Counted from the first letter of the stretch, positions 25,858-61,397 are shown. The stretch is DNA of 64,000 bases from Trichonephila clavipes (GCA_019973935.1 BMAU01016994.1:1008762-1072761); one strand, 5' to 3'. The notes: generated by a model from the letters alone, not told the origin. A program made the numbers and translations.

Positions 25858-25976
25858 TAATCCATCACTGTCTATAAAGGGGTTTAAATTTCTAAGTTTA
25901 CTATTAGGTGAGATAACTCCTTTACTTTATAAGCTCTTCATTTCAGCCAAAAAAACATGTTCTTGGACCATTCTGA

Positions 25977-27407: not shown

Positions 27408-27434
27408 ATCCTGCTGATCAGGATTTATTAATAT

Positions 27435-27905: not shown

Positions 27906-27988
27906 CTCTGTATCAACCTTAGGCTCTATGTGAACACCCTCAATTTCCCAGAATTTTTTCAGTGTTTTGTTTAAATCGTCATCAACAA

Positions 27989-28267
27989 TTAATCCGCAAT
28001 GAACGCGATTCTCTGTAACTTGTGATCTACACTTCCACTTACAACATAACTAAACACCGTATTTTGTAACACTAAATGCGAATTATCACAATAAAATTTT
28101 CCAGGCTTTAACAATTCGTAAAAGATTTCAGCACCAAGTAACATATCAATTCTATCTGATATATTAAATTTATCATCCGCTAAGGGCACAAACTCTGAAA
28201 CATTAACATCTACATCAATCACCTTGTTTGGAATGAGATCTGTAATCTTATTAACTACTAACAACAT
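27989..28267 (-). CDS. BEL protease fragment
   Basis: ORF lies between gag and RT. Confidence 0.5.
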   Translation of the reverse strand: MLLVVNKITDLIPNKVIDVDVNVSEFVPLADDKFNISDRIDMLLGAEIFYELLKPGKFYCDNSHLVLQNTVFSYVVSGSVDHKLQRIAFIAD

Positions 28268-28271
28268 TAAC

Positions 28272-37467: not shown

Positions 37468-37496
37468 ATGGACAGAGCAAGTAAAGTACTGCGAAG
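37468..37496 (+). CDS. host gene coding exon 1 (ATG; MDRASKVLRR)
   Basis: ATG then donor AAG|GTAATA. The reading frame continues in exon 2. Confidence 0.5.
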
Positions 37497-38609
37497 GTAA
37501 TATGCTTATTTGTCTTTTAAATCTTATTTAGGTAAATTCAAGCTTATGTATTTAATGTTTTGCACATTTTAATATATATTAATTAATAATTTTGCTTACA
37601 AGTATATAAAAATTGAAATAAAGTATATTTTTAAATGCAACAAAAAATATTAGGAATAATATGAGGGCAATTTCAAAATTAATGCATAAAATGACATTAC
37701 TGCTGCAGGGTAGAGACATCACAAGGGTGATAAGTCAATTGTAGTTTGAACTTTGAGGAAGCAACTTGTATTCTTCTTCTATCAGTAGCTTGTATGTTTT
37801 AAATTAATGAGAGTTGCAAATGGAGCCTACAGCAGTCTCTGGTACTGTGAATGCTAAAGATTAAAGACTGAAACTTAACGTTCTGCCTGAAGAAGTATGT
37901 GATAATTTAACTATAGACTGTTTTGTGATTTAACAATAGATAGTTCTTATTGGAGAGCTCCATATTACCCATGAACCAAAAAATTATATTAAGATTTGTT
38001 GAAGGTCAAACAGAGGGTGATTTTTGTTTGTAGTTACCAAGGTCTAATCATTACAAAAAACAGGTTCATGTGGACAAAGTGTCATAAGACTATACTATCA
38101 TCCTTTACTGAAAAAAGGAAGAATGAATGTGCACAAAACTCAATCTCGATTGCTTTAGCTTGGACTACTTGTTCTCCTTGACAATGCTTGGCTGCTTGTT
38201 GCCCAGATTGTAATAGGACAGCTGCTTTAATATGGTAGGAAGGTGTTACCCCTTTATGCACCTTTCAGTCCTGACACAAGTCCATCAAATTTTGACTTAC
38301 AAAATTGAAAGAACCTATGTGAGAACTTATTTTTTTTATTTATGATCGACCATTTTACTTCCATTAATTTTCCGTCCATTTGGTAAATGAACAAAGATAA
38401 TGTATTAGATAGAATTAGAAAGCTTCCAAGCTGTTTGAATCCATCTCTGTGATGAAGGGAGACTACACTGAAAGCTTATAAAGAACTATTACCATCCAAA
38501 TTGATATGTAAATTTTAAAGAAATAAATGCATAACTTTTTTTATTAATTTTCCTATTTATTTCTTGCACCATTAATATTAGTGATGCACGCTTAACTTCC
38601 ATATGTGTA

Positions 38610-38745
38610 TCTTGGTGTGGAAGTTAGGAGAGGGAGGTACCAGCTCAAGTGTAGTCCTCCTCACTTGACCATGGTTTAAAATAATGAGGTTCATCTCCAA
38701 AAGCCCTCGTGTAGCTGAATAGCCCAACACTAATATTTATTTACT
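38610..38745 (+). mobile_element. old, diverged SINE1 3' fragment
   Basis: About 80% match to the SINE1 3' region (GGTACCAGCTCAAGTGTAGTCC...CCCTCGTGTAGCTGAATAGC). Confidence 0.55.
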
Positions 38746-41498
38746 CACTCCATATGTGTATCTGTTAATATTGATTAAAGCCGTTTTTTTTGCATTTTTG
38801 TGCTTATTTCCATAATTTTGTAATTAAATGCTGTTTTAGCCTTAAAATACATTTTGATAGCTCTATTTTGCAGTCTGATACAACATATTTAATGGCATTC
38901 ACAACAAGTTTGTGTGCATGATGTTACTACATAAATATGAATAATTCTGTATCTCAGGAAGATGAATTTGAGGAGTACTTAAAACTAGCTTTGAAATTTG
39001 GTTCAGAAATTAATTGAAGGATTCACATCATCCACAGAAAGCTATTTGAAAATAATTGAGCTTGTAATGTCTAGATATGAGAAAGAGGAATTTTTAATAT
39101 AATTATATGTTAGAGAATTGTTACTCTTGTTCTTCAAAAAGGATGGGAAATTCCAGTTGTCTAGTTATATAATAAATTAGAATCTCAATTGCATACCCTA
39201 GATTCCTTGGGAACTTAGAACTTACTGAAAAAGAACTCTCCTTAGAACAGAGTCTAATAACTATTATCATTTAACTTTTGTTCTTTTTTAGTATTAAGGT
39301 GCATATATATAACTGTAATTGATGACAGTGTAATTAACTTTTTAGCTTAATTTTAAGAGAAATTACCATTCTTCAGACTGAGAAATATTTTTTAGACAAT
39401 CATTAAAAATAAACTTTTGTTGAATTGTTTAATCAGTTATATTGATTTTTGTCATATTGACTCTTTGCAATTAGATTGTCTAAAATGTAATTCATAGGAT
39501 GTCTAAATATTTTCTGTGTGTGTGTAAATATCAGTTATTCTGAAAAATTACTTAATATTGACAAAAATAGGGTTATTGAAAAATTAAAGGGAATGTTTTC
39601 AAAAATATTAATAATTTTTTACCTCAAAATGCAGTTATGTCAACAGTATTACTTTTTTTTTCATTTTGGAAGTAAATTCATAATAAATTCGTGATATTTA
39701 TGAATTATTTTCATGCTTGTGATTTATTACCAATGATTAAAACTGCATGCCAGAGAATTTTCCAAAGACATTACATGTTATGACAACCAATTTGATATCC
39801 TAAAAATATTTTCTAAAATTTATTGAAATCCCCTGAAGATCACAGATGACATGGGGTTAGTATTTAAGTACTAAGAAGTTGATTATAGATTTCAGTTGTG
39901 TAATTGTTTTAAGGTGCATGTTGTGTCAGTTTTTGCAATTTTAGATTTTAAAACTATTTAAAAAGAACAAAAAAATTTAATTTTTCAAACTGTGATTTAT
40001 GAAATAATGCTAAAAATGATAATTTTTAAAAATTACTATTTGTTACATTTAAAGGTCAAAAACTCAGAATAATTGTTGGCTTGACAGTGATTAAAAAAGG
40101 AATGCAATTGTGACTCAAATACTTCAACTGATTCTTACTGTCTAAAAAAGTTTTTTGTCTCTGTTTTACTAAGATAGATTGTGTATTTTAGGAACATGTT
40201 GTTGGTCTAAAATTGAAGTTACTCATGTGTAAAATGATTAATAAATACAAAAGTTACATATATTCAGAGAATAGCTGTTATGTGGCTTAAAACTTAATAC
40301 ACAAATATCGTACCTTGTTGATATTTAAGTATCAAATTAACTCTTTTTTTAATTTTTGATATGTGTCTAAATTGTGATTTAGAAATGTCAATGAGAAATG
40401 TTTTCATAAGTGTACTACAGATATGAAATTTGTATATGTAACGTTTTTAACTCTAAAGAAACCTTTGACTTGTCTTTTCACTTTTATGCATTTAGCAGTT
40501 TAATGGAAGCCAGTATAGTATATATAAAGGCAATAGATTTTAATTAGTGGGTTATGGATTAACCAGAAAGCAAATTATTGTCGGGATACTGGAAAAATAG
40601 AAAGAAAAAAAATTCTCCATTTTCAAATAATTTTACCAAACTGAAATAAATCTACAAGTTAAAATCTGACCCAAACTGTAATTTTTTAGAGATAAGACAT
40701 GTGCTCTACCTATAGGAAGAGTTCATGTGTGAGGATTTTATAATATTGGATATGATATACAACATTACTACTGCTTGTAAAATAATTAATGGTTAACTTT
40801 AAAAAACATTAGGGCAGAAAATATTACTTGAAATTTTCATGAGTAATTACTTAGTTTTCAAAAGAGTGCTGTGTGAAGCAGTGTAAAAATATTAAATACT
40901 TTACAAAGCACAGATAGATGTAAAAATATTGATTAGGAGGCAGTGCCTGATTAATTAAATAAGAATAATAAATCATCCAGACATGAAATATGGAAAAATG
41001 ATGAAATTGGGCAGTAAGTATATTAAGATTTTACATAATGAACCAATCCCCATTAAAGAAGGGGAGTTATACCAAAGGAAGTGTAAGTCACACACACACA
41101 ATTCTATGTAAATGTTCTTAATTATTTAGAACTCTCAAGAAGATGGTAACTGCTCAAAAAAATCCAATCCTGGATTTAAAAGGAAATTAATCCTGGGCAA
41201 TCTAAGCACATTATTTGGCAAAAACTTTTTGAAAACACAGAATACAAATACAAAATTGTCATTTCAAGCGGTGATAAATCAAGTACTATGCTCTTCATCA
41301 ATTTCACATATATTATGATTTAATCTAAATTTTTTATCCAGGATTTTACCTTTCATTCCGAACAATCTGTTGCAAATGTTTCAGCAATAGTTTTATTTAT
41401 TGTATATATAATTTTTCTGTCATGAAATAATGTACTTTATTAACTCTAATGATCTACAATATGAATTAAATTTTACATGCATTATATTTACATAATAG

Positions 41499-41614
41499 GA
41501 GCAGTGTTCGTTTGAGGTCTTTAGGAGCTGGCCATTCTGATCTGAATATGGTTATATCAGAGCTAAAAGATCTGAGGCATGCTACAAAAGCATTTATGTC
41601 TGCACAAAATTCTG
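41499..41614 (+). CDS. host gene exon 2
   Basis: Acceptor ATAG|GAGC and donor CTG|GTAAGT. Open in one frame only (SSVRLRSLGAGHSDLNMVISELKDLRHATKAFMSAQNS). Confidence 0.6.
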
Positions 41615-43560: not shown

Positions 43561-43613
43561 CTTCTCAAGATATGGTTAAATGGGCTACCTGTGATGAAAA
43601 CAGAGCAATTCAA
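43561..43613 (+). CDS. host gene exon 3
   Basis: Polypyrimidine tract then TATAG acceptor. Donor CAA|GTAAGT. Phase-consistent (ASQDMVKWATCDENRAIQ). Confidence 0.6.
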
Positions 43614-44422
43614 GTAAGTTTTATCTATATGTCATTTTAAAAAGTAAAGGAACAAAACACTTTTTTTTAAAAAAAGAATATTTTGGAAAGAATGATTAAG
43701 TAGTCTAATTTAAAAATTTCTTTATAGTTAATCTAATTATAGATGATTTGCAATTTTAATCTTTTTTCTCAATTTCTAAGTCTTCCACCCCTTTTAAAAT
43801 TTTAAATATTTTCTTATTTCAATGTTTTAATTGTTGTATTTTTAATAATGTTATAGCGATTGTTTTAAACAGATGTATAGTAATTTGAAATATCTTTGTT
43901 ACATGTTTCCAAATCTTCAGATTTTAATTTCATCAGTCACTATTTTATGTAAAAATTGTGACAAAATACTGGGCTTGAAAATCATTTAGCATGCTTTAAA
44001 AGTTTAACAATAAAGATACTAATTAAAGTGCTTTTGCCATTTAAGGATTATTTGGAATTATTTTTTCTGTTTTCATTAGCTGTTACACAGTTTTAATATA
44101 TTAAATACACAAAACAAGCAATTAAGTTGACTTGATTGACTTGAACAATATTCAATTTTCTCATCCCAATTGCATGTATACAAACACATACTTTATTATA
44201 TAAAGAGGTAGGAACAAAAAAATTCAGAAATTGAGATAATCCATGTCAACAAAAATTTGCAGTATTTGAAATGCATTTTCTCTTCCTTTCATGATTGTTT
44301 CACTTCTGCTATCTTGATTGAATTGCATGCACAAATGTCTTTGTTCTATGATGTAAAAAATATGGATTTTTTTTTCAAAAGCAACACTGTAACACTAAAT
44401 TTTGTCAGCATTTGGGAAAACT

Positions 44423-44540
44423 TCGGTGCCAGCTCAGGTGTCGTCCACGTCACTTGACCATGGTTCAAAATTACGTGGTCCGTCGCCAAAAGCCCTCGTG
44501 TAGCTGAACAGTGCGACGTTAATATTCAATCAATCAATCA
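44423..44540 (+). mobile_element. SINE1 5'-truncated copy (SINE-a), left boundary of the tandem duplication
   Basis: SINE1 3' ~120 bp with (TCAA)n tail. Flanked on both sides by TTGGGAAAACTTC (44410-44422 and 44541-44553). Confidence 0.8.
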
Positions 44541-45454
44541 ATTGGGAAAACTTCATTTGAAACTTATGCTAACAAAATTATAGTAATTCTACAATGTTGA
44601 TTTCATGGGTGTATACATGATATCAGCATTTTAAAATCTGATGATCCAGTGCAGGTAAGTTCTCTGACAGACCTGCAGTTTTACTAATTGAGCTAAAAAT
44701 TTATTTCTGGAGGCAGAACAGTGGTCAAATGCCATTATCTTGACAGCTTAGAACAATTCAGGAAGTGCATTCATCATAAATTATCTCGGATGTTGCAAAA
44801 TGGACAATTGTGTATCATCTGAGACCAATATACAGGCGCACATTGGTCTCAAAGTGTCATACAGTTTTTTGCCGAATTTGAAAGTGAATGCTTTCACATT
44901 TTGCCTATTTACAGGATTTAGCCCTGTGTTAGTTTTACTTATTTTAAGAATGAAACTTAAATATCTGCTAGGGTATCATTTTTTGTTTTTATATCATATA
45001 ACAACAGCTTTGCGAGAGGTTTTATGGATAGTTGCAAAAGATGGCTTTTGTATTGCTTCCATAAGTTGTACCACTTCTGTCAAAGGTGTATTGTTGCCCT
45101 AAAGGAATATTTTGAAGGTTGTTGTGTATTAATATTTTTAGATATTAGAGTTTTGAAAATTTTATGCCTTCAACTTTAGGATCCTGCTTCATAGGATAAT
45201 TTTAGAAACAGAGTTTTTATACCTTTGGCAGTTGTTAAGCTTAGAAAAATTGAATACTTTTGCATTTTACCTATATGGTAATATTAATAATATTATTTAA
45301 TCATAACTTTATTAACATTAGTTTAATATCTTAGGAATTGCAACTTGATTTTAAGTATATTGAGCCAGTCTTTTTTCAATTCCCACTATTAGCTCACACT
45401 CTCTATATATTTATTTATCTTGTTCAAATTTTCAATCATTAATAAAATACATTT

Positions 45455-45900
45455 TAAAGTGCGCAGTTGAGCTGAAATTTTATATACATGATTATTTTGG
45501 ATGACAATACAGTAATTTAATTATAAATGATAAAAATTAATTGATTAAAACTAATTCAAAGAATTACAAATACAGCAACGTTGGCATAATTTTTTGCGAC
45601 TTAGCAACCCTTTTGGCGACTTGTGTCAAAACTTGAAAAAGTTTTTTTCTCACATTTTAAAGCACTCATTTGAGCTGAAATTTTCTATACTCTATTTTTT
45701 TGGGTGACAATTGATAATTTAATTATAATTAATTAAAATTAATTTACTGAAACAATTATATTTATAGATACAGCCACGTTGGTTTCATTTTTATCGACTT
45801 GTGTTAAAATTTTAGCAGATTTTTTTTTTCTCAAGTTCTAAAGCATTCTTTTGAACTGAAATTTATACACAATTGTTTTGGATGACAAATTAATTGCCAC
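45455..45900 (+). repeat. ~190-bp tandem repeat, about 2.5 units (duplicated again at 47790-48235)
   Basis: Units begin AAAGYRCKCAKTTGAGCTGAAATTT. A related fragment with GTCGCCAA motifs lies at 10080-10180. Confidence 0.6.
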
Positions 45901-46601
45901 TTAACATTGTGATTCTGTCATATGTATATACATATTTATATTAATTGTAACTATTTAATAATAAGTAGCTAAAAAATAAATTTTTTGTTTTTTGATCTAA
46001 GCAGGAATTGACTTTTTATATTACTTGTTTTTAAATTTTGTTTACCTTATTTTCTCTGAATCATAAATAAAATGAGGATAAGAAAAAATTTTTCAAGCTA
46101 GTGTAGGATCTTGATTTGGAAGTGTTTGTAATTATTGATAAAACTGTTATGTATGCTTAAATATGCAATTTCTTAAAAACATTTGCATTACTTTTTGGCT
46201 TTGTAAATGGTTTTGTGATCTTAATTTAAATTATATTGGAAAAAATACCAAATGTATGAAAGATTTTACATCATTTAGTGTTTAACTTTTCAATCATAAT
46301 AGGCACTATAATTTTGAAAAATGTCCATTATTTTAAATTATTGTTATTGTAAGATAAAATTAAAATAATAAATCTACCTTATTTGTTACTCTTGTATATG
46401 ACATAATTTTCTGAAATCAAGATTTGTACCAAGTTTTCATAAAAACTTTTTCAATATTTAAGATTACATGGAGGTTATACCATAGACCGGTGGTCTTCAA
46501 AGTTTTTCAACTCATGAAACCCCTAGAACAAGAATGTGTTTTCATGGAAACCCTATAACTAGAGAGTATTTTCATGGGACCCTACTCCCCACACACACAG
46601 T

Positions 46602-46876
46602 GGCTGCGGTAGCCGAGTGGTATAGGTATCAGACCGTGGCTTGCCTTGTCACGAGTTCGAGCCCAGTACCACTAAAGACCCGCCGTGTAGGGCAGCGATG
46701 CACGTTAAATCTGTCGAGAGCTGAAATGTCCTCCCGTTGGTGTGGTAGTTAGGAGAGGGGGTGCCAGCTCAGGTGTCGTCCACGTCACTTGACCATGGTT
46801 CAAAATTACGTGGTCCGTCGCCAAAAGCCCTCGTGTAGCTGAACAGTGCGACGTTAATATTCAATCAATCAATCAA
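46602..46876 (+). mobile_element. SINE1 full-length copy (recombinant junction copy)
   Basis: 5' flank CCCCACACACACAGT. 3' flank TTGGGAAAACTTC. So the 5' flank comes from the downstream SINE and the 3' flank from the upstream SINE. Confidence 0.8.
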
Positions 46877-48936
46877 TTGGGAAAACTTCATTTGAAACTT
46901 ATGCTAACAAAATTATAGTAATTCTACAATGTTGATTTCATGGGTGTATACATGATATCAGCATTTTAAAATCTGATGATCCAGTGCAGGTAAGTTCTCT
47001 GACAGACCTGCAGTTTTACTAATTGAGCTAAAAATTTATTTCTGGAGGCAGAACAGTGGTCAAATGCCATTATCTTGACAGCTTAGAACAATTCAGGAAG
47101 TGCATTCATCATAAATTATCTCGGATGTTGCAAAATGGACAATTGTGTATCATCTGAGACCAATATACAGGCGCACATTGGTCTCAAAGTGTCATACAGT
47201 TTTTTGCCGAATTTGAAAGTGAATGCTTTCACATTTTGCCTATTTACAGGATTTAGCCCTGTGTTAGTTTTACTTATTTTAAGAATGAAACTTAAATATC
47301 TGCTAGGGTATCATTTTTTGTTTTTATATCATATAACAACAGCTTTGCGAGAGGTTTTATGGATAGTTGCAAAAGATGGCTTTTGTATTGCTTCCATAAG
47401 TTGTACCACTTCTGTCAAAGGTGTATTGTTGCCCTAAAGGAATATTTTGAAGGTTGTTGTGTATTAATATTTTTAGATATTAGAGTTTTGAAAATTTTAT
47501 GCCTTCAACTTTAGGATCCTGCTTCATAGGATAATTTTAGAAACAGAGTTTTTATACCTTTGACAGTTGTTAAGCTTAGAAAAATTGAATACTTTTGCAT
47601 TTTACCTATATGGTAATATTAATAATATTATTTAATCATAACTTTATTAACATTAGTTTAATATCTTAGGAATTGCAACTTGATTTTAAGTATATTGAGC
47701 CAGTCTTTTTTCAATTCCCACTATTAGCTCACACTCTCTATATATTTATTTATCTTGTTCAAATTTTCAATCATTAATAAAATACATTTTAAAGTGCACA
47801 GTTGAGCTGAAATTTTATATACATGATTATTTTGGATGACAATACAGTAATTTAATTATAAATGATAAAAATTAATTGATTAAAACTAATTCAAAGAATT
47901 ACAAATACAGCAACATTGGCATAATTTTTTGCGACTTAGCAACCCTTTTGGCGACTTGTGTCAAAACTTGAAAAAGTTTTTTTCTCACATTTTAAAGCAC
48001 TCATTTGAGCTGAAATTTTCTATACTCTATTTTTTTGGGTGACAATTGATAATTTAATTATAATTAATTAAAATTAATTTACTGAAACAATTATATTTAT
48101 AGATACAGCCACGTTGGTTTCATTTTTATCGACTTGTGTTAAAATTTTAGCAGATTTTTTTTTTCTCAAGTTCTAAAGCATTCTTTTGAACTGAAATTTA
48201 TACACAATTGTTTTGGATGACAAATTAATTGCCACTTAACATTGTGATTCTGTCATATGTATATACATATTTATATTAATTGTAACTATTTAATAATAAG
48301 TAGCTAAAAAATAAATTTTTTGTTTTTTGATCTAAGCAGGAATTGACTTTTTATATTACTTGTTTTTAAATTTTGTTTACCTTATTTTCTCTGAATCATA
48401 AATAAAATGAGGATAAGAAAAAAATTTTCAAGCTAGTGTAGGATCTTGATTTGGAAGTGTTTGTAATTATTGATAAAACTGTTATGTATGCTTAAATATG
48501 CAATTTCTTAAAAACATTTGCATTACTTTTTGGCTTTGTAAATGGTTTTGTGATCTTAATTTAAATTATATTGGAAAAAATACCAAATGTATGAAAGATT
48601 TTACATCATTTAGTGTTTAACTTTTCAATCATAATAGGCACTATAATTTTGAAAAATGTCCATTATTTTAAATTATTGTTATTGTAAGATAAAATTAAAA
48701 TAATAAATCTACCTTATTTGTTACTCTTGTATATGACATAATTTTCTGAAATCAAGATTTGTACCAAGTTTTCATAAAAACTTTTTCAATATTTAAGATT
48801 ACATGGAGGTTATACCATAGACCGGTGGTCTTCAAAGTTTTTCAACTCATGAAACCCCTAGAACAAGAATGTGTTTTCATGGAAACCCTATAACTAGAGA
48901 GTATTTTCATGGGACCCTACTCCCCACACACACAGT

Positions 48937-49211
48937 GGCTGCGGTAGCCGAGTGGTATAGGTATCAGACCGTGGCTTGCCTTGTCACGAGTTCGAGCCCA
49001 GTACCACTAAAGACCCGCCGTGTAGGGCAGCGATGCACGTTAAATCTGTCGAGAGCTGAAATGTCCTCCCGTTGGTGTGGTAGTTAGGAGAGGGGGTGCC
49101 AGCTCAGGTGTCGTCCACGTCACTTGACCATGGTTCAAAATTACGTGGTCCGTCGCCAAAAGCCCTCGTGTAGCTGAACAGTGCGACGTTAATATTCAAT
49201 CAATCAATCAA
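48937..49211 (+). mobile_element. SINE1 full-length copy (SINE-b)
   Basis: Flanked by CCCCACACACACA on both sides (target-site duplication). Confidence 0.8.
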
Positions 49212-51420
49212 ACCCCACACACACACTTAGAAGAATATTTCTTAAAATAATATTTAAAGTATATCAACAATAGATCAATATAAAGGAAATTGAAAAAAGT
49301 ATTGCATTTATTAAAACATTTTTAATCTACATTTAATAATCTACTCATTAATAATATTAATCTGTGATCCAAGTGTTACCTACCCATGCATTATGCTTAG
49401 TAACTGGGATGTGCTTGCATTTTTTTCATTTATACTGTCAAAGTCTAGGTCTATTGAAAATAACTGCAATAACATTATATATTTGGAGTTTCATTTGTTT
49501 CTATGCTTTTTGTTTGTAGTCAATCATGTTGCAAAATACTTTTCACTTATATATTGCAATGACAGTAAAATGTTTATGGCTATGTGAGAAATACTGTGTA
49601 TTTTGCATGAGAGAGAGAATTTGCAACATAAAATTTAGGATCTGTTCTTGCTTAAATTTAGATTTTTAACATCAAATTTGTTGTTATATTGTAGGTGTTT
49701 TTCCACAAATATAAAAAGGTGTATTTTCGTTTAGAAAACTATTAGTTTTGCAAAACAATACTAACGAGTATAAAATTATCTCGTAGAATTCAGAATAGTA
49801 AGCAATAAAATATTCACAATCTAGTAAGTAATGTATGTATAAAGATAAAAAGTTTCAATATTCTTTTATTATATTATAATAAAAGTTAAAAAAGTATTGC
49901 AAAATAAAGTTATGTATGAATAAAATTTTCAGTTTCTTAATGACAGGGATGAACTTTAAATTCGTGTGAGTGTATAAACATATTAAAGAACGTGAATCTA
50001 TTTTGCATACTCTTTTATAAGTTTCTTTTTGATTTTTTTTTATTGTGGAACCTCTGGGTATGCCTCATGGAACCCCAGGGTTATGTCTGCGATATATAAT
50101 AAGGCTTCACAACCTGTGGTATATGTATGTCCAGGGATACATGAAATGATCTCAGGAGGTGCATGGGAAAAAAAGGTGTAATGGTCAACATTGGTGGATA
50201 GACTGAACATAAGAGAAAATATCTGTTGTTATTCTATATATCTTAAATGGATCTTGATAGATGAGGAGTTGTGACATTATAATTCTTATTTTTCATATGT
50301 AATACAGGTAATACACTTTCATTCATATGAAATCAGGATTTCCTGTTAAAACGAACCACTAATACTTTTTTTTTACTTGTGTATGGACATCATTTCATGA
50401 ATATTTTTTTGTGGTGAAATAACTCGTAAATTACATAAGTAAAGTAAAAATTAAACATATTTGTCTTTTAATTATCGTATCACAGAATAACCAATTGTAT
50501 ATTCTTGTAGAATGTACTGTAATTTATTTATTGGTTGTACTGTAATGGACTTCACTAAAGTTGGTAATACTGCTTTGTCTGTATCTGTATTATTTTTGTC
50601 ATAATAGTTTTTAATAAGTTTAGCTTGCTCTTGAAGTAATAGTGCCGTAGTGTTATATATTTTAAATAGTTTAACTAAAAGTGTGTAATTACTAATGTAC
50701 ATTTATTACTAAATGGTGAAAATAAAAATATATTTGTATTGCAGAATTATTACTGTATCTAATTTTGGTAATTGTTCATGGCAGTCAATGATTCTATGTT
50801 GAGAGGTACATGAGTAAAACAAGTTGAGAAATGCTATTATAGTGTATAGTTCTTTATAATTCACACATTATATTTAAGTTATCAGTTGGAACAAATTTAT
50901 TTGAAATGTCATATAGTAATCAGAATTTATAATTATTTTAATGTAGATATTTGTTTTTAGTAGTACAGAAAAGTTTTCTGTATATTGACTTGTATTTTTA
51001 TACTAATTTTAACTTAATATTTTAGTTTCACTTTATTATGTATATAATCTGGTATGCATTATCATTGCTGGATTTTGATTTTTGGAAATTGAATGAGAAT
51101 TAAGAATTTTTCCTTTCTATTACTGTAAAAAGAATGATTTTCGGTCTTCAAAATGTTTGCAAGAAATGTAACTAATAAATTATTTTTGAATGTAAAATTA
51201 AATTTTTTAAATTGTGTAATTGAATAGTTCATGATCTTACTGTGTCACCATTGATAGTCAATGTAATGAATAGATGTCGTATATGAATTATCTAAGTGTA
51301 CATATTTTTTCTCCACATATTCAGTGTAATATTTTTAATGTCTATTTTAGTAAATTATTTTAAATTTAATTTAGATTTGATGTGATAGCTTATCATATTT
51401 ATGATGAATTAAAAAAAAAG

Positions 51421-51693
51421 AGGGAAGCCTAGTGGCTGAGTGGTAAGTGTATCGCACTTCCACACCACAGGTCTGGGGTTCAAACCCCGAGCTGGGCAAG
51501 GTTGACTCAGCCTTTCATCCCTTCAGTAGGCTGATAAATGAGTGCCAAGCTTGCTTGGGAACTTAACACTGTGAGTTTCGCACCTGACCGGAACATCTGC
51601 TCATGCACCTCAGAGCCCAAGGTCGTGTATATTGAGTTGGTCACAGTAGGCCTTGGCCCTCATGGGCTGTCGTGCCACTGAGTTAAGTTAAAA
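51421..51693 (+). mobile_element. SINE2 copy
   Basis: GCCTAGTGGCTGAGTGGTAAG...GGTTCAAACCCC tRNA-like head plus conserved body. Preceded by an A-rich stretch. Confidence 0.65.
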
Positions 51694-52102
51694 AAAGAAG
51701 TATTGAAATAAGATATTAATTAAAGAGAGAGGGGTTATTTTGTATTATAATTTTTTTTATCTTATGGGTGATAATATGTGTGATTAATTACCGTAAAATC
51801 CGAGGTATAGTGCACAATGGTGTATAACGCACATCCTCTTTTTTACGAAGAAACCTGAAGTATATGTGTGCATTGATCTTATATTTTGAAGTCATTTATT
51901 CGAGGTATTACCCTAAGCATTAGCAAAAATAGTATACTTCTAGATGAAAATAGTTTCACTTCATCATGTCATTTCTTTTGAATAAGCAGTATTTTGTTAT
52001 ATGTCGAATTTTGAATACTTGTAACTATTTTACACGCTTTAAAATGTTCTGTGTTTTCTATTAACATATTTGACAGTTTGATTTTTTCTCATAAATTTGC
52101 AG

Positions 52103-52166
52103 GACATTATGAGTCAGTTGGGTGAATTAAATAACATGTGGACTGATGTACAAAAAGACTTTATTG
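52103..52166 (+). CDS. host gene exon 4
   Basis: Acceptor TTTGCAG|GAC and donor TTG|GTATGT (DIMSQLGELNNMWTDVQKDFI). Confidence 0.6.
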
Positions 52167-55067: not shown

Positions 55068-55147
55068 AGCACCTGAAAACTTTCAAGAATCATTTTGAGT
55101 TGATTTTGGAAGGTGAAAAGCAATTCGACATTGCACAGAATCAATTG
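55068..55147 (+). CDS. host gene exon 5
   Basis: Acceptor TTTTATAG|AGC and donor TTG|GTTTGT. Restores the frame between exons 4 and 6 (EHLKTFKNHFELILEGEKQFDIAQNQL). Confidence 0.6.
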
Positions 55148-55505
55148 GTTTGTATTTAATCATATTTTACTTTTATATTATGATGAACTTGAAAACTACG
55201 TAGTAGTAATGGTTTTTTGTAATTTTTACTATTGAAATATTCCTTAGTAACAAATGAATGTAATGACATCCATCATATAATATTAAAAGAAGTTTCTAAG
55301 TTTTGCAAATTATATGTCATTTGGGGTTTATATACATTTAAATATTGAAATATTTGAGTTATTTTATTCATGCTGCAAATATTTTTTAAGTTAAAAATAT
55401 TGTTGTAATTACTGAATTTTAAAGCAGGATTAAATAGTAATAAACATGAAGGCTTAGCTAAAAAATTATAGGCAAAAATTTGTATTTTGTATTTTAAATT
55501 TTTAG

Positions 55506-55562
55506 GCAAGCTGTGAGCTCAATGAACAAAGGATACGTAAAGAATTGAAAAGAGCTTCAAAG
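55506..55562 (+). CDS. host gene exon 6
   Basis: Acceptor TTTTTAG|GCA and donor AAG|GTATGG (ASCELNEQRIRKELKRASK). Confidence 0.6.
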
Positions 55563-57067
55563 GTATGGAAATTTTGTATCACAGTAGTTCGTTAATTATA
55601 TAATTAGATAATGATTAGTAATAAAACACATGTAATATATTTATCAAGTTGTAATTTTTATATATATATACACCTTGTTTTAGAGAATTGAGTATTATAA
55701 ACTGTATTTTAAATTTTTTTTTAAAAGAACGGCTTTTAGATACACTTTTATGGATGCAATTAAGACCAGTTAAATGTTAAATATTGTTCAAGTTAAGAGG
55801 ACACAGTACGATTCAATTGACAAAAATTGGTCAAAAACTCAAATCTAACTTTTTTAGCCTAAATTATTCTCTATATACTTTTTTATAACCTCACAAAATT
55901 TGAAAGCTCTAAACTTAAAAAATGCAGAAGTATAACTTTTACGTTCATTTTTATTCCCATCCCTATGGCAAATCAAAACTTTAAAGTTACTTATCTCAGA
56001 AAGATAAAATAACTGGTTTATCTTCATTTAAAATGCTAAGGATTTTTTTCTATTGTGCCTATTGCTTTGAATTTTTTTTAACCTATTGCTAATAGAACAT
56101 GTAACAAAAGTTAGTATGCATTTTTGAATCCAAGCAATACTTATTTTTTTAAAAAAATAATTGAACTCTGAATTAATACATTTTTAAGGAATTTTCAATA
56201 AGCATTCATAAAAAGAAGTATTGTACAATACCAATCATGTTATCGCAAAATCTATACCAACTTTTGTTACACATAGTTAGATGTACTTGTAAATCACATT
56301 TCATGTGTTAATGAAAGTTTTGTAGGAGGAGTAGCATTTAAAAATCACTTCACAAATTTTTTCTTAAAAAATTAAATGAAAATGAAATTATGAAATGAGT
56401 TATGAAATTTTGAGCACAAAATCTGTTTCACATCATACATGAGACAACCAAAAAATTTTGAAAATCCTTTAATTAAAAATTTTTTGTGTAAATTGTACCA
56501 TGTCCCCTTAAAGAAGATACTACTTTACATTAATCATTTCAAATTATTTGCATCTTAATATTATTTAAAGTTAATTATTATTAAAGGTCAAGTAATACTG
56601 TATATTATTCTCCATGAAGTTATTTTTTTAAAGGTATGCATTTTAGAGTATTATAAATTAATAACTAAACACATTAGTCATCTACAATATAGTAAGGCAA
56701 CTTGTCAACCTGGCTTAAATACAGTTCTAACTATAACTGTATTAAATATTATTATTATAATTGGTAATTATATTGTGTGTGTGTTCTTAGTTTAAAGTAT
56801 GTAAATTGGGTAGTTGTTGAAGATGGGGAAAAAGAGCTGTAATCACATTAGTTATTGATTAGCGGTATCATACTTGTTTTATTTTGAATTTGAGATACCT
56901 TTAGTTAATTAGTAAAAAGTGAAGTAAAAATAACAAAGTAAAATAAAAATAATAAATCATTGCAATTATAGTAATATTATTTGTTATGTATTTTCAGTTA
57001 TTTTGTATTGATAAAAACAATTTTTTTTTAACATGTTACAATTTTTTGCCTTTACAATTATTTTTAG

Positions 57068-57149
57068 AAAGCAACCGAGGAAGAAATAAATAACTTGGAA
57101 ATAAAGTTATCTCAAGCTGAAAGAGCTAAATATTTAGCTCAATTGGAAG
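57068..57149 (+). CDS. host gene exon 7
   Basis: Acceptor TTTTTAG|AAA and donor GAAG|GTGTG (KATEEEINNLEIKLSQAERAKYLAQLE). Confidence 0.6.
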
Positions 57150-58355
57150 GTGTGTTTCATAAATGTCTTTGTGTTTTAATTATATTTATATCATTCTATT
57201 CATATTTAAGGTGCCAACATTTTGAATGTTTGCGTATTTTTTTTTAATAATATATATATACTGCCAACTGCAAGGTATCTCATTGTAAGTGTTACAGGTT
57301 TTGATTGATTGCAATTTGTCTCAAAATAAGTTTATAGCTTTTAATATAGGAATTATTTTAAAGGATGGGTTTTTTTAATATAAATATCACTTTTATTATC
57401 AAAATAATCACTTTGATAATTTGATTGTAATATTTTTACATATTGTGTGTGTATTACAAAATTATGATGTTTTTATTGTTGTGCCAGTGTTTGATGAGCT
57501 TTGAAGCAAGAATTGAAGTAGAGAGATAACTAACTGGCTTTTGGGGGCATACTGGACAAAAATGTTTCACTGTATCAATTTTGCTTTATACTCATGTGAC
57601 ATAGTTTTTCAGGCTTTGGTATTTTTATATGTGGCATTTACTGCCGTGTCTTAACAAAAATATTTCTTTGTATCTGAAAAATTTCATTGAAAGGCGAAAA
57701 AAATGTCCAGAGCTATTTCATTAGTAGTATTCAGCGCAGAAATTTTATTCAGTGATACCTGCTACAAGTTTTTTTTTTATTTTCATTTTCAAAAGATATT
57801 TCAATAATATATCTTGTGACATATTATTAGATTTTGTGCAATTCCATGTTTTCTTTGAAATAAAATCTTGGCACACAAGGCAAGACGATCTAAATTTGCC
57901 TGGAATTGAATGGGTTAATTAAGTTCTCATTTTAAATTGTATGATAGGTTTTTTTTTTGTTTTGTTTTTTCAATAATTTTTTTTATTCCCTATATATATA
58001 TATAATTTATGGAAACTATTTGTAATGCATTTAGAATTCTGATTCTAATTTCTTAAAATAAATTATAAAACATTAGGACTTTTGTAGAACTAGAACTGTT
58101 ATTTTTCAAGAAAAGTGATATTTTATCAACTTTTAAAATGTAATATTTGTGAAATAATGAACATTAAGCATTTTAAATTATAATTAAAATATTGATTATT
58201 AAAATAACTTAGATTAGTTCCTTGTTTCTAAAATTTTTAACTGAGTTTAATTTTTTAAATAATTTCTGTTATTAATTTCAAAATTTAGTTTGATTTTTAT
58301 TTTAAACAATGTGTTTGTATTAATAAACATTTCTAATTTACTGTTTTAATATCAG

Positions 58356-58480
58356 TTGTAGAATTGTCTCATAAAAATGAAGCTATTAAGGTTGTTCGAC
58401 TGAAGGAAGGTTTGCTAAAACTCTCTGAAGCTTATGTGGAGCTTGCAAATAAATGTGCAATAATTTTTGAAGCACAGCGA
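58356..58480 (+). CDS. host gene exon 8
   Basis: Acceptor ATCAG|TTG and donor CGA|GTAAGT (VVELSHKNEAIKVVRLKEGLLKLSEAYVELANKCAIIFEAQR). Confidence 0.6.
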
Positions 58481-59597
58481 GTAAGTTACAAATCACAAAT
58501 TTACTGTTACAAAAATAATTTTATGATAATTTACATTTATGTGTAAATTACTCTTAAATTAGTTAATATTTTATATTTTTATGATAGATAATTATTTGAT
58601 AATTATTTACAGCATTAAAAGAAACATAAGAACTTGTAAGACTTGAAATATTCTTCATAAATTCAAATATGAAAGAATGTTTTTCTTCTCATTAATTTTT
58701 TTGTTGACTAATTAGAATTAAATGTGGTTTACATATACAACATAATTTATAATAAAATTAAAGAAATATATTTTTTGAAAATTAAAAATATTTAAAAAAA
58801 AGTTCAAAGCTAATCTGTTGTTGTTTTACTCAAAATTTCCCTCAAAAATCACTGAAAAAGAAACAGTATTGTATTCATATTAATTCATGACATTTTAGTC
58901 CATTCTATATTCATTGTCTTTTATTGAATAAAATTTGTGAAATAGGTATAAATTAAGTGAATATTCTATTTCATATTTAATGCTTAAATATTATCCCTAA
59001 GCAGCTTTAAAAATAAACTTGACATTGATTTGTGGCTATATGGTATTTATTTAAATCTCATTGAAATTCCATTGTGTGATTTGTATTTATCATCTCCTAT
59101 TCTAAAATACAAATTAAAATATTGTAAAATGCATCCTGAAGAATACAAAGATAATAGTGTTACTGGTTATAAAACGAACAAACAAAAAAATCTCAGGGAA
59201 TGACTCAGTAAATTAGTATACAAGTAACCGAGTAAATAAAAATTTAAAAATATTTTATACTTTTTTTTTTTTGTAATTTAGTTACATTAACCTACATATA
59301 TATTTTTTGAAGATCATTATCCCAAATCCACCACTTGTTAAGAATATAATCTTTGAAATAATCATTAAATATAACTGTTTATTCCTTATATTTATCTTGG
59401 TAAATTTCTCAAAATTCATGTATTAATTTATTTTTAATTTAAACTTTGCGATGTGTATTTACACATGTGTAACTATTCATAATCTTCATACCTCATGTTT
59501 ATTAATAATTTATGTTTCTATTAAAAGATTGTGCTTTTTTTTTTCAAAAATAATTCTTGTAGCTATTAATTTTTGTAATGGAATATTTATTTTGCAG

Positions 59598-59658
59598 GAA
59601 GTATCTCATTATTTACCAGATGTTCACAGTCGAGATATGAATGAATTAAAGTATACTG
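59598..59658 (+). CDS. host gene exon 9
   Basis: Acceptor TTTTGCAG|GAA and donor CTG|GTGAGT (EVSHYLPDVHSRDMNELKYT). Confidence 0.6.
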
Positions 59659-60608
59659 GTGAGTATACTTTTATAAACTATGAAAGAAAATTATGGGATT
59701 GTTCAGATTCTCCAAAATAAATGAAATTGTTCACAAATATATGAGGAACATAGCTTAAGAAAGGTTTGACAGTACAACAAACCTTAATAAATTATGAAGT
59801 TTCCCAGGGAAATATCTTCATAATCTCAAATATCAATAACCAGTGATATTACAGAAATATTTATTATTACTGTGGATATTGAATCAGTCTCTTACATACT
59901 GAGGAGTAACTGCAGTAATCAAGGTCATCTTTTTTTTCTTCTTGTGTAGTAGGGCTGACCTACCTTAATCTGTCAAGGCTCAAAATCCTCACATTGGAAT
60001 GGTATGTTAGTTTGAAGAATAAACTGCCATTTCGGGTCTCATTTGACTGGGGTTTAGAATCGTAAGGTCTAATTTCAATAGCCTTTGTGTTGCTTCAGAA
60101 TGCAACATTAATATAATCAAATTAGAATATAATCTTTTAAAATACTCAAGCTTCTTTTATTTTGCTTCTTGCCATGTTTGTATTATTTTAAGTGTATGTT
60201 TAATCTTAGTTGCATCTCTCTCTCTTTTTTTAAAACCAGTCTTGCAGATTCAAATATTAGAGATAAGATTTTTGTTATGAAAGCAGTTCTCAACCCTTTA
60301 ATGGATTGTTTGCCTGTTAAAAATTTACTGAAGACAATAGAGTTAAAACGAGATAGAGAGAGAGAAGGAAAACTGTAGTATTTTACAGCATATGACACAA
60401 ATAAGTTCAATTTAATTTGCTATCCATACTTTTATTAATAAAATTTGATTAATGTTATTCTTCATTAGTTCTAGTATTCTGTTTTAGACCTTTTTTTTTT
60501 TAAAAAAAAATTAAGGATTTGTTTGAGTGGTAAATTTAAATATTAGTGTGTATAATAAAATTGGATGGTTAAAGGTATTAATTTTTTAAATATTACATTT
60601 ATTCTTAG

Positions 60609-60707
60609 GTTCTGGTGCTTGTAAACAAGCAGTTGCCAAAGCACGAGATAGAGTGCAACTGTATAAACGCCACAATTATCGCTTAGTACCTTCAAGCTCA
60701 ATCATAG
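60609..60707 (+). CDS. host gene exon 10
   Basis: Acceptor TTCTTAG|GTT and donor TAG|GTATAA (GSGACKQAVAKARDRVQLYKRHNYRLVPSSSII). Confidence 0.6.
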
Positions 60708-61098
60708 GTATAATTAGTTTTTAATATAGTTTTGAATATGAATTTTTTGTATGTGCTTTTAGTTTTTTTAAATTCTGTTTAAAAATTGAACTGAGTAAAT
60801 TTTCAATGAATTCAAACTAAAGAAAAAATTTAAAATGTTTTTAGTTGATTCACTTTTTTTTTAATTATATAAAAAGTCAAAAATATGTCCCTTATTATCT
60901 CCATATAACTTTTTAAATTTTAAAAAGAACTTGTTATCAGTATATTTAAGGCAGATTTATCCTTGACATTTTTTGCTAAAAGAATAAAATCTTAAAAACG
61001 TGTTTTTTCTCCCAATTAACCATTAACAGGTAGGGTAAGTTTGAGATTAATATTTAAACTAAATTTATTCCTCAAAACTGTTTTACTGTATTTACCAG

Positions 61099-61397
61099 AA
61101 GATCCTCCACCCCCTTATACACCAGGCTTCTACAATCCGGCTACTGGGCGGCCATATAATGAAGCCACTGATAACTGCCTGAACAGTCAGCCTCCTGTGA
61201 TTCAACGACAAAGAGCTGTTGCCACTGTTACCATCTCACCATCATGCCCACCTTATCCATCACCCTCACCTCCTCATTATAACATCTCAACTTCCATTGC
61301 TCCTGGTGCCAGGCAATCCAATGAAGTATATCGCAGTGGCAGTGGAAATAACTATGAAGATGAACTCTCTGGAGCTATGGGAGCTTCACGCATTTGA
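61099..61397 (+). CDS. host gene terminal coding exon; proline-rich tail with PPPY (WW-domain-binding type) motif; stop TGA
   Basis: Acceptor TATTTACCAG|AAG. ORF EDPPPPYTPGFYNPATGRPY...SPSCPPYPSPSPPHY...ends at 61397. AATAAA-like signals in the AT-rich 3' flank. Confidence 0.65.

What the first reader, a model, noticed from the sequence alone, without database searches (positions are those of the whole stretch)
37468..61397. Host gene with 11 coding exons: ~355-aa coiled-coil protein with C-terminal PPPY tail, family not recognised
Eleven exons with canonical GT-AG boundaries keep one frame from ATG (37468) to TGA (61397). The conceptual protein begins MDRASKVLRRSSVRLRSLGAGHSDLNMVISELKDLRHATKAFMSAQNSASQDMVKWATCDENRAIQDIMSQLGELNNMWTDVQKDFIEHLKTFKNHFELILEGEKQFDIAQNQL... 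and ends ...EDPPPPYTPGFYNPATGRPY..SPSCPPYPSPSPPHY.. Heptad-rich helices of about 250 aa plus a PPxY/PY-rich tail suggest an adaptor for Nedd4-family WW-domain ligases, possibly endosomal or BAR-like. I could not assign it to a named family. Intron 3 (8.5 kb) hosts the SINE-mediated duplication.
Basis: partly seen in the sequence, partly recalled or inferred. Interest (0 to 1): 0.6.

Follow-up and report, generated by a model that had tools for sequence, protein, structure and literature searches.

The report
Spider gene for eisosome-like BAR protein
This is a real, already annotated but unnamed spider gene of 11 coding exons, and its protein is a distant animal relative of the yeast membrane-shaping proteins Pil1 and Lsp1, a family the papers I read describe as confined to fungi.

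Summary
Eleven GT-AG exons (37468-61397, + strand) splice into a 1065-nt reading frame of 354 aa. The product is identical to GFV75503.1, an "uncharacterized protein" of Trichonephila clavipes. Two intron-less RNA-derived contigs from a close relative align end to end with the spliced model. Against the orthologous Larinioides locus, only the 11 exons and the 3'UTR are conserved.

The family can now be named. Residues ~23-245 form a BAR domain of the Pil1/Lsp1 (yeast eisosome) type:
- A broad profile of the animal and choanoflagellate relatives hits only Lsp1 and Pil1 in the PDB (E 6.6e-10 to 6.5e-5).
- hhalign against fungal Pil1/Lsp1 gives 95.8% probability.

The family occurs in choanoflagellates, sponges, nematodes, a priapulid, arthropods, molluscs, a brachiopod and a nemertean. 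I saw no vertebrate, Drosophila or C. elegans member.

Every one of the 35 aligned relatives has a PPxY motif just after the BAR domain. Binding to Nedd4-type WW domains is plausible but untested.

Two differences from yeast stand out: Pil1's N-terminal lattice-contact region is absent, and its PI(4,5)P2-binding triad is not conserved.

An ordinary host gene, but from an undescribed animal branch of a family the literature describes as fungal.

The parts
37406..37467 (+). 5'UTR part of the first coding exon. It is preceded by a T-rich tract and an AG at 37404-37405, a possible acceptor for an unseen upstream non-coding exon.
   Evidence: cDNA contig L001 starts at window 37406/37407 and runs into the ATG without a break.
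37468..37496 (+). Coding exon 1 (ATG; aa 1-10, start of the basic N-terminal segment).
41499..41614 (+). Coding exon 2. It holds the rest of the basic N-terminal segment (aa 1-22, net charge +5; R9, R10 and S11 nearly invariant) and the start of BAR helix 1.
43561..43613 (+). Coding exon 3 (BAR helix 1, including the conserved W56 and N62).
52103..52166 (+). Coding exon 4 (BAR helix 2).
55068..55147 (+). Coding exon 5 (BAR helix 2).
55506..55562 (+). Coding exon 6, 57 nt and in frame (ASCELNEQRIRKELKRASK, the distal tip of the BAR arm). It is absent from a predicted Tachypleus isoform (P0009), so it may be a cassette exon.
57068..57149 (+). Coding exon 7 (BAR helix 3).
58356..58480 (+). Coding exon 8 (BAR helix 3). 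It holds the most conserved motif, E169..K172..R175.K177; K172 is invariant in all 45 aligned sequences.
59598..59658 (+). Coding exon 9 (the loop with conserved P209-D-V and the Y221-T-G223 motif, which aligns with the fungal Y-D-G).
60609..60707 (+). Coding exon 10, 99 nt and in frame (last BAR helix, aa 224-241, plus linker). It is skipped in the predicted Parasteatoda isoform X2 (P0008).
61099..61397 (+). Coding part of exon 11: the disordered tail up to the TGA stop.
61104..61118 (+). PPPPY (aa 258-262). The PPxY core is conserved in 35 of 35 close relatives, and Y262 is present in 43 of 45 sequences of the broad alignment.
61269..61280 (+). Second PPxY (PPHY, aa 313-316). In the alignment it appears only in the three spider sequences.
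61347..61394 (+). Conserved acidic C-terminal end motif, NNYEDELSGAMGASRI. The bilaterian consensus is [DE]-x-DL-S/T-GAMGGAKI at the C-terminus. Its partner is unknown.
61398..63014 (+). 3'UTR of exon 11. cDNA supports it to 62614 and conservation with Larinioides extends to 63014. Candidate poly(A) signals lie at 62960 (ATTAAA) and 63042 (AATAAA).

Best explanation
The region is a functional protein-coding gene of the orb-weaving spider Trichonephila clavipes. It encodes a 354-aa cytosolic protein built from four modules.

1. A short, strongly basic N-terminal segment (aa 1-22) that probably lies on or in the membrane as an amphipathic helix.
2. A three-helix BAR domain (aa ~23-245) that is homologous to the yeast eisosome core proteins Pil1 and Lsp1.
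3. A disordered proline-rich tail carrying a near-invariant PPPPY motif directly after the BAR domain.
4. A conserved acidic C-terminal end motif.

Most likely mechanism: the BAR domain dimerises into a crescent that binds acidic-lipid membranes and senses or stabilises their curvature. The exposed PPxY motif then recruits a WW-domain protein to that membrane patch, most plausibly a Nedd4-family ubiquitin ligase.

Shown here: the gene structure, its transcription in a close relative, purifying conservation of the exons, homology and fold similarity to Pil1/Lsp1, and deep conservation of the PPxY motif.

Inferred only: dimerisation, membrane binding, lipid specificity, higher-order assembly and the identity of the WW partner.
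For: Gene:
- All 11 exons have canonical splice sites and keep one frame.
- The product is identical to GFV75503.1.
- The spliced model aligns colinearly with intron-less cDNA contigs L001 and L002.
- Only the exons and the 3'UTR are conserved against the Larinioides locus.

Homology to Pil1/Lsp1:
- Pfam Pil1 (PF13805) matches 17 of 35 relatives. The best is E 6.4e-08; 4 of the 10 relatives rescanned reach the 27-bit cut-off, always colinear over profile positions 58-264 of 265.
- The broad holozoan profile A5 searched against PDB sequences finds Lsp1 at E 6.6e-10 and 1.8e-09 and Pil1 at 3.9e-05 and 6.5e-05. The next hit is at E 0.028.
- hhalign of A5 against 20 fungal Pil1/Lsp1 sequences gives probability 95.8%, E 6.7e-09, over 202 columns.
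- In a decoy control, a fungal-only HMM scored real animal sequences up to 19.8 bits, against a maximum of 8.3 for reversed and 6.0 for shuffled sequences.

Fold:
- The AlphaFold2 model has pLDDT >90 across aa ~20-245, with helices at 23-58, 63-134, 137-205 and 224-241; the tail has low confidence.
- The six best Foldseek hits are all Lsp1 or Pil1 (E 1.1e-08 to 1.5e-06). The next is SNX1-SNX5 at 3.3e-05.

Membrane-facing features:
- The N-terminal 22 aa have net charge +5, with R9, R10 and S11 nearly invariant.
- Many basic positions in the BAR domain are conserved (K/R33, R/K36, K40, K91, R/K94, K126, K133, K172, R175, K177, K193).

Tail:
- A PPxY motif sits at the same place in 35 of 35 relatives. 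It is also present in the sponge, nematode and choanoflagellate members I examined.
- Established knowledge (not tested here): PPxY motifs are the ligands of class I WW domains, such as those of Nedd4-family ligases.
Against: - The window's own protein does not reach Pfam's Pil1 threshold: 14.4 bits against 27 for the 335-aa draft, and no hit at E <= 0.01 for the 354-aa form.
- The first, narrower profile gave only weak signals: PDB E 0.027 and hhalign probability 6.9%. The homology call therefore rests on the broadened alignment.
- The Pil1 PI(4,5)P2-binding triad R126/K130/R133 (PMC11324527) maps by the hhalign register onto K94/E98/L101. Only one of the three is basic, and E98 and L101 are conserved in the family.
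- Pil1's folded N-terminus, which makes the lattice contacts and precedes the amphipathic helix at residues 39-48, has no counterpart. The animal protein begins at about the equivalent of Lsp1 residue 34.
- The BAR domain as a whole is not basic (net charge -1).
- No dimer model, lipid data, localisation or WW-binding data exist.
Confidence: 0.65

Rival explanations
1. The PPxY tail recruits WW-domain proteins other than Nedd4-family ligases, for example Yorkie/YAP, Kibra, MAGI or WWOX. The protein would then be a membrane-anchored signalling scaffold or sequestering factor rather than a ubiquitin-ligase adaptor.
For: The motif is a generic class I WW ligand and nothing in the sequence selects among WW proteins. 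The family goes back to choanoflagellates and sponges. From established knowledge, several WW-protein families already exist in those lineages.
Against: From established knowledge, short disordered tails with one or two PPxY motifs next to a membrane-targeting module are typical of Nedd4 adaptors such as arrestin-related proteins and Ndfip. This is an analogy, not a test.
Confidence: 0.2
2. It is a BAR-domain protein of a different subfamily (arfaptin/ICA69-like, SNX-BAR-like or F-BAR, as some automatic UniRef names say), and the resemblance to Pil1/Lsp1 is only general BAR-fold similarity.
Against: Sequence profiles hit only Lsp1 and Pil1 in the PDB, down to E 6.6e-10. hhalign gives 95.8% probability. 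No other BAR Pfam family (BAR, FCH, arfaptin, Vps5) was reported for any of the members scanned. Both structure aligners separate Lsp1/Pil1 clearly from the next BAR proteins.
Confidence: 0.07
3. It is a non-membrane coiled-coil or cytoskeletal protein, as the 'tropomyosin-like' and 'CCDC39-like' names in some annotations suggest, and the profile matches reflect helical composition.
For: There are weak sub-threshold Pfam hits to coiled-coil families such as TMF_TATA_bd, Dynactin_p22 and PUMA_CC. Annotators' names are heterogeneous.
Against: Reversed and shuffled decoys of the same sequences score far lower against the fungal profile. The high-confidence model is a compact antiparallel three-helix BAR unit, not an extended parallel coiled coil. 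Coiled-coil chains in the PDB appear only at E >= 0.028.
Confidence: 0.04
4. The exon chain is a pseudogene or a prediction artefact.
Against: The frame is intact. cDNA contigs from a close relative carry the same 11 exons. Conservation is restricted to the exons. Orthologues of 352-355 aa exist in at least eight araneoid spiders.
Confidence: 0.01

Closest known systems
Pil1 and Lsp1, core BAR-domain proteins of the yeast eisosome (Pfam PF13805; PDB 3PLT, 8QB7, 8QB8)
   Same: - Homologous BAR domain over its whole length (hhalign 95.8%, 202 columns, about 19% identity).
- A basic segment directly N-terminal to the BAR domain. Its hydrophobic-R-[RK]-S motif resembles Pil1 F42-R43-R44-S45 by eye and in register with hhalign (Pil1 R43 and the helix at 39-48 from PMC11324527).
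- A shared Y-x-G...K motif before the last helix.
- Equivalents of K66 and R126 remain basic.
   Different: - No counterpart of Pil1's folded N-terminus, the part before the helix at residues 39-48, which makes the lattice contacts.
- K130 and R133 of the PI(4,5)P2 pocket map to conserved E98 and L101, and R70 maps to a variable position.
- Longer BAR arms, with about 7-residue insertions in two places. One insertion contains the invariant K172.
- A PPxY motif and an acidic C-terminal end motif that the fungal proteins lack.
- Found in animals and choanoflagellates, not fungi.
- Lattice or furrow formation is unknown.
Meu14 (S. pombe) and Ssp1 (S. cerevisiae), sporulation-specific Pil1-family BAR proteins (PMC12470953)
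   Same: They show that divergent Pil1-family BAR domains can act on membranes other than eisosome furrows. [quoted passage not shown]
   Different: They are fungal and shape the forespore membrane. They have no PPxY tail. I did not compare them directly with the spider protein.
Arfaptin, SNX1/SNX5 and Bin1/amphiphysin BAR domains
   Different: No sequence-profile relationship was detected. Their structural scores are clearly lower than for Lsp1/Pil1.
PPxY-bearing Nedd4 adaptors (arrestin-related ARRDC/ART proteins, Ndfip1/2)
   Same: A membrane-targeting module followed by an exposed PPxY motif. This is a functional analogy from established knowledge.
   Different: The folds are unrelated (arrestin fold or transmembrane protein against a BAR domain). 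No binding data exist for this protein.

Membership tests
Pil1/Lsp1 BAR family (Pfam PF13805) | The protein itself scores at or above Pfam's gathering threshold of 27 bits. | tested here: not met
   The window protein scores 14.4 bits (E 0.028) as the 335-aa draft and gives no hit at E <= 0.01 as the 354-aa form. Orthologous relatives do pass: Pomacea 32.9, P0019 28.0, P0076 27.8, P0046 27.6 and the nematode P0308 27.0 bits.
Pil1/Lsp1 BAR family (Pfam PF13805) | Family-level sequence homology to fungal Pil1/Lsp1 over the whole BAR domain. | tested here: met
   hhalign of A5 against fungal A3 gives probability 95.8%, E 6.7e-09, 202 columns. The A5 profile against the PDB finds Lsp1 at E 6.6e-10 and Pil1 at 3.9e-05, with no other family below E 0.028.
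Pil1/Lsp1 BAR family (Pfam PF13805) | A three-helix BAR fold closest to the Lsp1/Pil1 structures. | tested here: met
Pil1/Lsp1 BAR family (Pfam PF13805) | An N-terminal amphipathic helix inserted in the membrane (Pil1 residues 39-48, including R43). | tested here: inconclusive
   A conserved basic segment with L8-R9-R10-S11 lines up with F42-R43-K/R44-N/S45 by eye and within one residue of the hhalign register. AF2 predicts a helix at aa 2-10, but only at pLDDT of about 47.
Pil1/Lsp1 BAR family (Pfam PF13805) | A folded N-terminus that forms lattice contacts between dimers (in Pil1, the part before the helix at residues 39-48). | tested here: not met
   The animal proteins start at about the equivalent of Lsp1 residue 34, so there is no sequence for this region. 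The feature is defined in PMC11324527.
Pil1/Lsp1 BAR family (Pfam PF13805) | The PI(4,5)P2 pocket R126/K130/R133 and the phosphatidylserine pocket R43/K66/R70. | tested here: inconclusive
   By the hhalign register, R126 maps to K94 (K/R in 30 of 35), K130 to E98 (E/D in 34 of 35), R133 to L101, K66 to K33 (K/R in 32 of 35) and R70 to variable H37, next to the conserved R36. At about 19% identity the register may be off by a helical turn. No coordinates were available to map the surface.
Pil1/Lsp1 BAR family (Pfam PF13805) | Homodimerisation, self-assembly into a lattice or filaments, and membrane tubulation or furrow formation. | not testable with these tools
   Only monomer prediction was available. 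No biochemical data exist.
PPxY (PY-motif) ligands of class I WW domains | A P-P-x-Y core in an exposed, disordered region, conserved across orthologues. | tested here: met
   PPPY lies at aa 259-262 in a region with pLDDT below 60. A motif is present at the equivalent position in 35 of 35 sequences. Y262 is present in 43 of 45 sequences of the broad alignment. The sponge, nematode and choanoflagellate sequences I examined also carry PPxY.
PPxY (PY-motif) ligands of class I WW domains | Physical binding to a WW domain, for example of a Nedd4-family ligase. | not testable with these tools
   No interaction data or complex prediction were available.
F-BAR (FCH/EFC) domain proteins, the automatic UniRef name of some relatives | A match to F-BAR profiles and an elongated F-BAR fold. 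| tested here: not met

The most novel reading that the evidence does not exclude
Many invertebrate animals and some choanoflagellates retain an eisosome-type membrane scaffold inherited from the opisthokont ancestor. It would be a Pil1/Lsp1-like BAR coat that organises a plasma-membrane microdomain. In the animal lineage it would be wired through its near-invariant PPxY motif to Nedd4-family ubiquitin ligases, coupling membrane curvature or tension to the turnover of membrane proteins. That would overturn the statement that animals have no orthologues of the eisosome core (PMC10010689; PMC3128537). It would also explain why the family stayed unnoticed: I did not see it in vertebrates, Drosophila or C. 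elegans.
Probability: 0.2. Interest if true: 0.7.

Novelty: new variant of a known kind. Interest (0 to 1): 0.45.

Why it matters
As a genome feature this is an ordinary, correctly predicted host gene. The value lies in what the protein turned out to be.

The two papers I read on the point describe the eisosome core proteins Pil1 and Lsp1 as having most significant hits restricted to fungi (PMC3128537) and as having no direct orthologues in animals (PMC10010689).

This gene belongs to a well-conserved family found in choanoflagellates, sponges and many protostomes. It shares the Pil1/Lsp1 BAR domain and adds a near-invariant PPxY motif. I found no paper describing this family in the library searched.

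If followed up, it offers two things:
- an animal entry point to eisosome-like membrane organisation;
- a testable link between a curvature scaffold and WW-domain or ubiquitin-ligase signalling.

It also gives a consistent name to a family that now carries a scatter of misleading automatic names: rickA, staphylocoagulase, MTI1-like, tropomyosin-like, CCDC39-like and ZADH2.

Tried and rejected
- Pfam on the N-terminal 114 aa and on the full protein gave only sub-threshold hits (Dynactin_p22, DUF7553, TMF_TATA_bd, Ntox15 and Pil1 at 14.4 bits). I set these aside as helical-composition noise, except Pil1, which I followed up.
- My first 10-exon model (335 aa) lacked exon 6. Alignment with orthologues corrected it.
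- I rejected a candidate exon at about 60250 (open frame ADSNIRDK...). It has no usable donor, exons 9 and 10 join in frame without it, and neither cDNA nor conservation supports it.
- The narrow arthropod and mollusc profile A2 gave only weak links to Lsp1 (PDB E 0.027; hhalign probability 6.9%). Adding sponge, choanoflagellate, nematode and priapulid members (A5) made the link strong.
- The afdb50 fold library was unavailable, so I obtained no structural census of UniProt relatives.
- The last word-indexed protein search, with the nematode and choanoflagellate alignment, was limited by its candidate cap. It returned 7 proteins and no C. elegans member.
- Absence from vertebrates, Holometabola, Rhabditina, cnidarians and echinoderms is therefore only 'not seen' among roughly 75 named hits. 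The exhaustive search found 607 representatives, of which only the best 150 were listed.
- Rfam and tRNA scans of the window found nothing.
- Literature searches for animal Pil1 homologues found none. The PF13805 mention in a Schistosoma paper is a spurious sub-threshold hit. Lee et al. 2015 (PMC4588622) is not held.

Full report

Yes.

Reading the flanks of each block gave a chain of exons with AG acceptors and GT donors. My first chain had 10 exons and 335 aa. Alignment with spider and horseshoe-crab orthologues showed a missing 19-aa segment. It is encoded by a 57-nt exon at 55506-55562.

The final model is:
- 37468-37496
- 41499-41614
- 43561-43613
- 52103-52166
- 55068-55147
- 55506-55562
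- 57068-57149
- 58356-58480
- 59598-59658
- 60609-60707
- 61099-61397

It gives a 1065-nt CDS of 354 aa ending in TGA at 61395-61397.

**2. Independent support for the gene model**

- The 354-aa product is identical to GFV75503.1, 'uncharacterized protein TNCV_1483471 [Trichonephila clavipes]'. The window is therefore golden orb-weaver DNA, and the gene is already annotated but unnamed. Orthologues of 352-355 aa exist in Argiope, Nephila, Trichonephila clavata, Caerostris and Larinioides.
- Two Logan contigs, L001 (2344 nt) and L002 (1252 nt), encode a 354-aa cluster member and have no introns. They align to the window in exactly 11 blocks. The spliced model aligns to each as one continuous match: 95.5% over 1253 columns with one gap, and 93.6% over 2355 columns. 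At 92-98% identity these are transcripts of a close relative, not of this individual.
- Against the orthologous Larinioides sclopetarius locus (L003), the only colinear conserved blocks between 30 and 64 kb are the 11 exons (82-96% identity) and a block at 61096-63014. The introns do not align.

Three further details follow:
- The terminal exon continues as a 3'UTR to at least 62614 by cDNA and to about 63014 by conservation.
- Intron 3 (43614-52102, 8489 nt) hides no exon.
- L001 begins at 37406, exactly after the T-rich tract and the AG at 37404-37405. It does not prove it, and nothing upstream of 37441 is conserved within the 10 kb of L003 upstream sequence.

**3. What is the protein?**

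Alone, the sequence gives only sub-threshold Pfam hits. One of them is Pil1 (PF13805) at 14.4 bits against a cut-off of 27.

Its relatives are many. A first search found 116 proteins, all uncharacterised or carrying unrelated automatic names, from chelicerates, insects, crustaceans, molluscs, a brachiopod and a nemertean. An exhaustive profile search found 607 cluster representatives at E <= 0.001 and 96 at E <= 1e-30. Sampling the more distant ones identified:
- two choanoflagellates (Salpingoeca kvevrii and S. urceolata);
- two sponges (Oscarella and Sycon);
- Priapulus, Artemia and Diaphorina;
- many nematodes, none of them Caenorhabditis.

I saw no vertebrate, Drosophila, cnidarian or echinoderm member. 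Only roughly 75 hits carried names, so that absence is not established.

**4. Homology to the yeast eisosome proteins**

- Pfam's Pil1 model matches 17 of 35 aligned relatives (best E 6.4e-08). Four of the ten relatives rescanned reach the curated threshold. The match is always colinear, covering profile positions 58-264 of 265.
- A narrow profile (A2) was only weakly linked to Lsp1: PDB E 0.027 and hhalign probability 6.9%.
- After adding the sponge, choanoflagellate, nematode and priapulid sequences (A5), the profile finds Lsp1 at E 6.6e-10 and 1.8e-09 and Pil1 at 3.9e-05 and 6.5e-05. Nothing else in the PDB falls below E 0.028.
- hhalign against 20 fungal Pil1/Lsp1 sequences gives 95.8% probability, E 6.7e-09, over 202 columns.
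- In a decoy control, a fungal-only HMM scored the real animal sequences up to 19.8 bits. The same sequences reversed reached at most 8.3 bits and shuffled at most 6.0. The signal is therefore not helical composition.

**5. Fold**

An AlphaFold2 model built on the family alignment is confident (pLDDT >90) for aa ~20-245. It has long helices at 23-58, 63-134 and 137-205 and a shorter one at 224-241. The tail is disordered.

**6. Same as Pil1/Lsp1, and different from it**

The cryo-EM study of native eisosomes (PMC11324527) defines four features of Pil1:
- a folded N-terminus that makes the lattice contacts;
- an amphipathic helix at residues 39-48, buried in the membrane;
- a PI(4,5)P2 pocket of R126, K130 and R133;
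- a phosphatidylserine site of R43, K66 and R70.

In the hhalign register, the spider protein begins at about the equivalent of Lsp1 residue 34. It therefore has no lattice-contact region.

Its basic N-terminal segment has net charge +5 over 22 aa. R9 and S11 are each present in 34 of the 35 aligned sequences and R10 in all 35. It contains L8-R9-R10-S11, which lines up by eye, to within one residue, with F42-R43-K/R44-N/S45 of the fungal helix.

The pocket residues map as follows:

| Pil1 residue | Spider position | Conservation in the family |
|---|---|---|
| K66 | K33 | K/R in 32 of 35 |
| R126 | K94 | K/R in 30 of 35 |
| R70 | H37 | variable |
| K130 | E98 | E/D in 34 of 35 |
| R133 | L101 | L in 33 of 35 |

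At about 19% identity the register could be off by a helical turn, so I call the lipid pocket inconclusive. It leans towards a different lipid-binding geometry.

The animal family has conserved basic residues of its own, notably K172 (45 of 45), R175 and K177. By the hhalign register, K172 sits within an insertion relative to the fungal proteins.

**7. The tail**

All 35 aligned relatives have a PPxY motif at the same position, 10-20 residues after the BAR domain. In the broad alignment Y262 is present in 43 of 45 sequences. The lineages I examined show:
- nematodes: TPPPPYS;
- sponges: PPSY;
- choanoflagellates: PPPY, PPAY or PPVY.

Spiders add a second PPHY.

The extreme C-terminus is also conserved. 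In bilaterians it reads W-x-S-D-Y-E-D-D-L-S-G-A-M-G-G-A-K-I, and in sponges G-W-[GA]-S-D-E-F-[SD]-D. I cannot assign a partner to it.

From established knowledge, PPxY is the ligand of class I WW domains. A Nedd4-family ligase is the most likely partner, but Yorkie-, Kibra- or MAGI-type WW proteins are not excluded.

**8. Mechanism**

Shown:
- a transcribed gene under purifying conservation;
- homology and fold similarity to Pil1/Lsp1;
- deep conservation of the basic N-terminal segment, the PPxY motif and the C-terminal motif.

Inferred:
- the BAR domain dimerises into a crescent and binds acidic membranes with help from the N-terminal helix;
- it senses or stabilises curvature;
- the PPxY motif brings a WW-domain protein to that site.

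Whether it forms an eisosome-like lattice is open. The missing N-terminal contact region argues for caution.

**9. Novelty**

The gene and its orthologues are in public databases as uncharacterised proteins. Pfam's precomputed hits already tag some relatives as Pil1.

The literature I could search describes the eisosome core differently. Olivera-Couto et al. found the most significant hits restricted to fungi, with Pil1/Lsp1 homologues in Dikarya (PMC3128537). [quoted passage not shown] I found no paper describing this animal and choanoflagellate family.

I therefore rate it a new variant of a known kind: a Pil1/Lsp1-type BAR domain joined to a PPxY tail in Holozoa.

**10. Verdict**

The finding is correct and, as a genome feature, ordinary. 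Its interest is moderate. It comes entirely from the family assignment and its evolutionary reach, not from anything unusual in the locus.

Noticed in passing
window 44425-49211 (inside intron 3): A near-perfect tandem duplication. A 2335-bp unit at 44425-46759 is repeated at 46760-49094 at >= 99% identity in every full 100-nt window tested. A third copy of its first 117 nt lies at 49095-49211, giving an A-X-A-X-A layout. This fits a recent repeat-mediated duplication or an assembly artefact. It contains no exon of the gene.
   Followed up: partly
window 24961-29966, minus strand: A BEL/Pao-type LTR retrotransposon coding region. It has a 564-aa gag-like ORF with no Pfam hit (28272-29966), Pao peptidase A17 plus reverse transcriptase (25977-27407) and an integrase (24961-25857).
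   Followed up: partly
window 7019-8976, 14857-16731 and 18864-20361, minus strand: Further retroelement fragments with reverse-transcriptase and RNase H domains. The first 30 kb of the window is rich in transposable elements at 30-43% GC. The gene region is 22-32% GC.
   Followed up: partly
window 55563-55592 (intron after exon 6), compared with P0002: The annotated Trichonephila inaurata orthologue (GFY45220.1, 336 aa) reads through the exon 6 donor into the intron (VWKFCITVV...) and lacks exon 7. This looks like an annotation error in that species.
   Followed up: partly
window 55506-55562 and 60609-60707: Exon 6 (57 nt) and exon 10 (99 nt) are in-frame and are missing from predicted isoforms in other chelicerates (Tachypleus X4, P0009; Parasteatoda X2, P0008). 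Skipping exon 10 would remove the last BAR helix. I could not check whether this spider uses the same alternatives.
   Followed up: no
window 37404-37406: cDNA contig L001 begins exactly at the base after an AG preceded by a T-rich tract. This suggests a splice acceptor and an unseen upstream 5'UTR exon, or alternative first exons that broke the assembly. No conserved upstream block was found within 10 kb in Larinioides.
   Followed up: partly
relatives P0052, P0053, P0067, P0074, P0079, P0081, P0085, P0108, P0288: Orthologues carry unrelated automatic names: rickA, staphylocoagulase, MTI1-like, CCDC39-like, tropomyosin-like and zinc-binding alcohol dehydrogenase domain-containing protein 2. 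These are probably transferred from low-complexity tail matches.
   Followed up: no
P0026 (Centruroides sculpturatus orthologue): This scorpion model has a Sina RING-finger segment (Pfam PF21362, E 2.6e-08 in the family scan) replacing part of BAR helices 1-2. It is probably a fused or mis-joined gene model.
   Followed up: no
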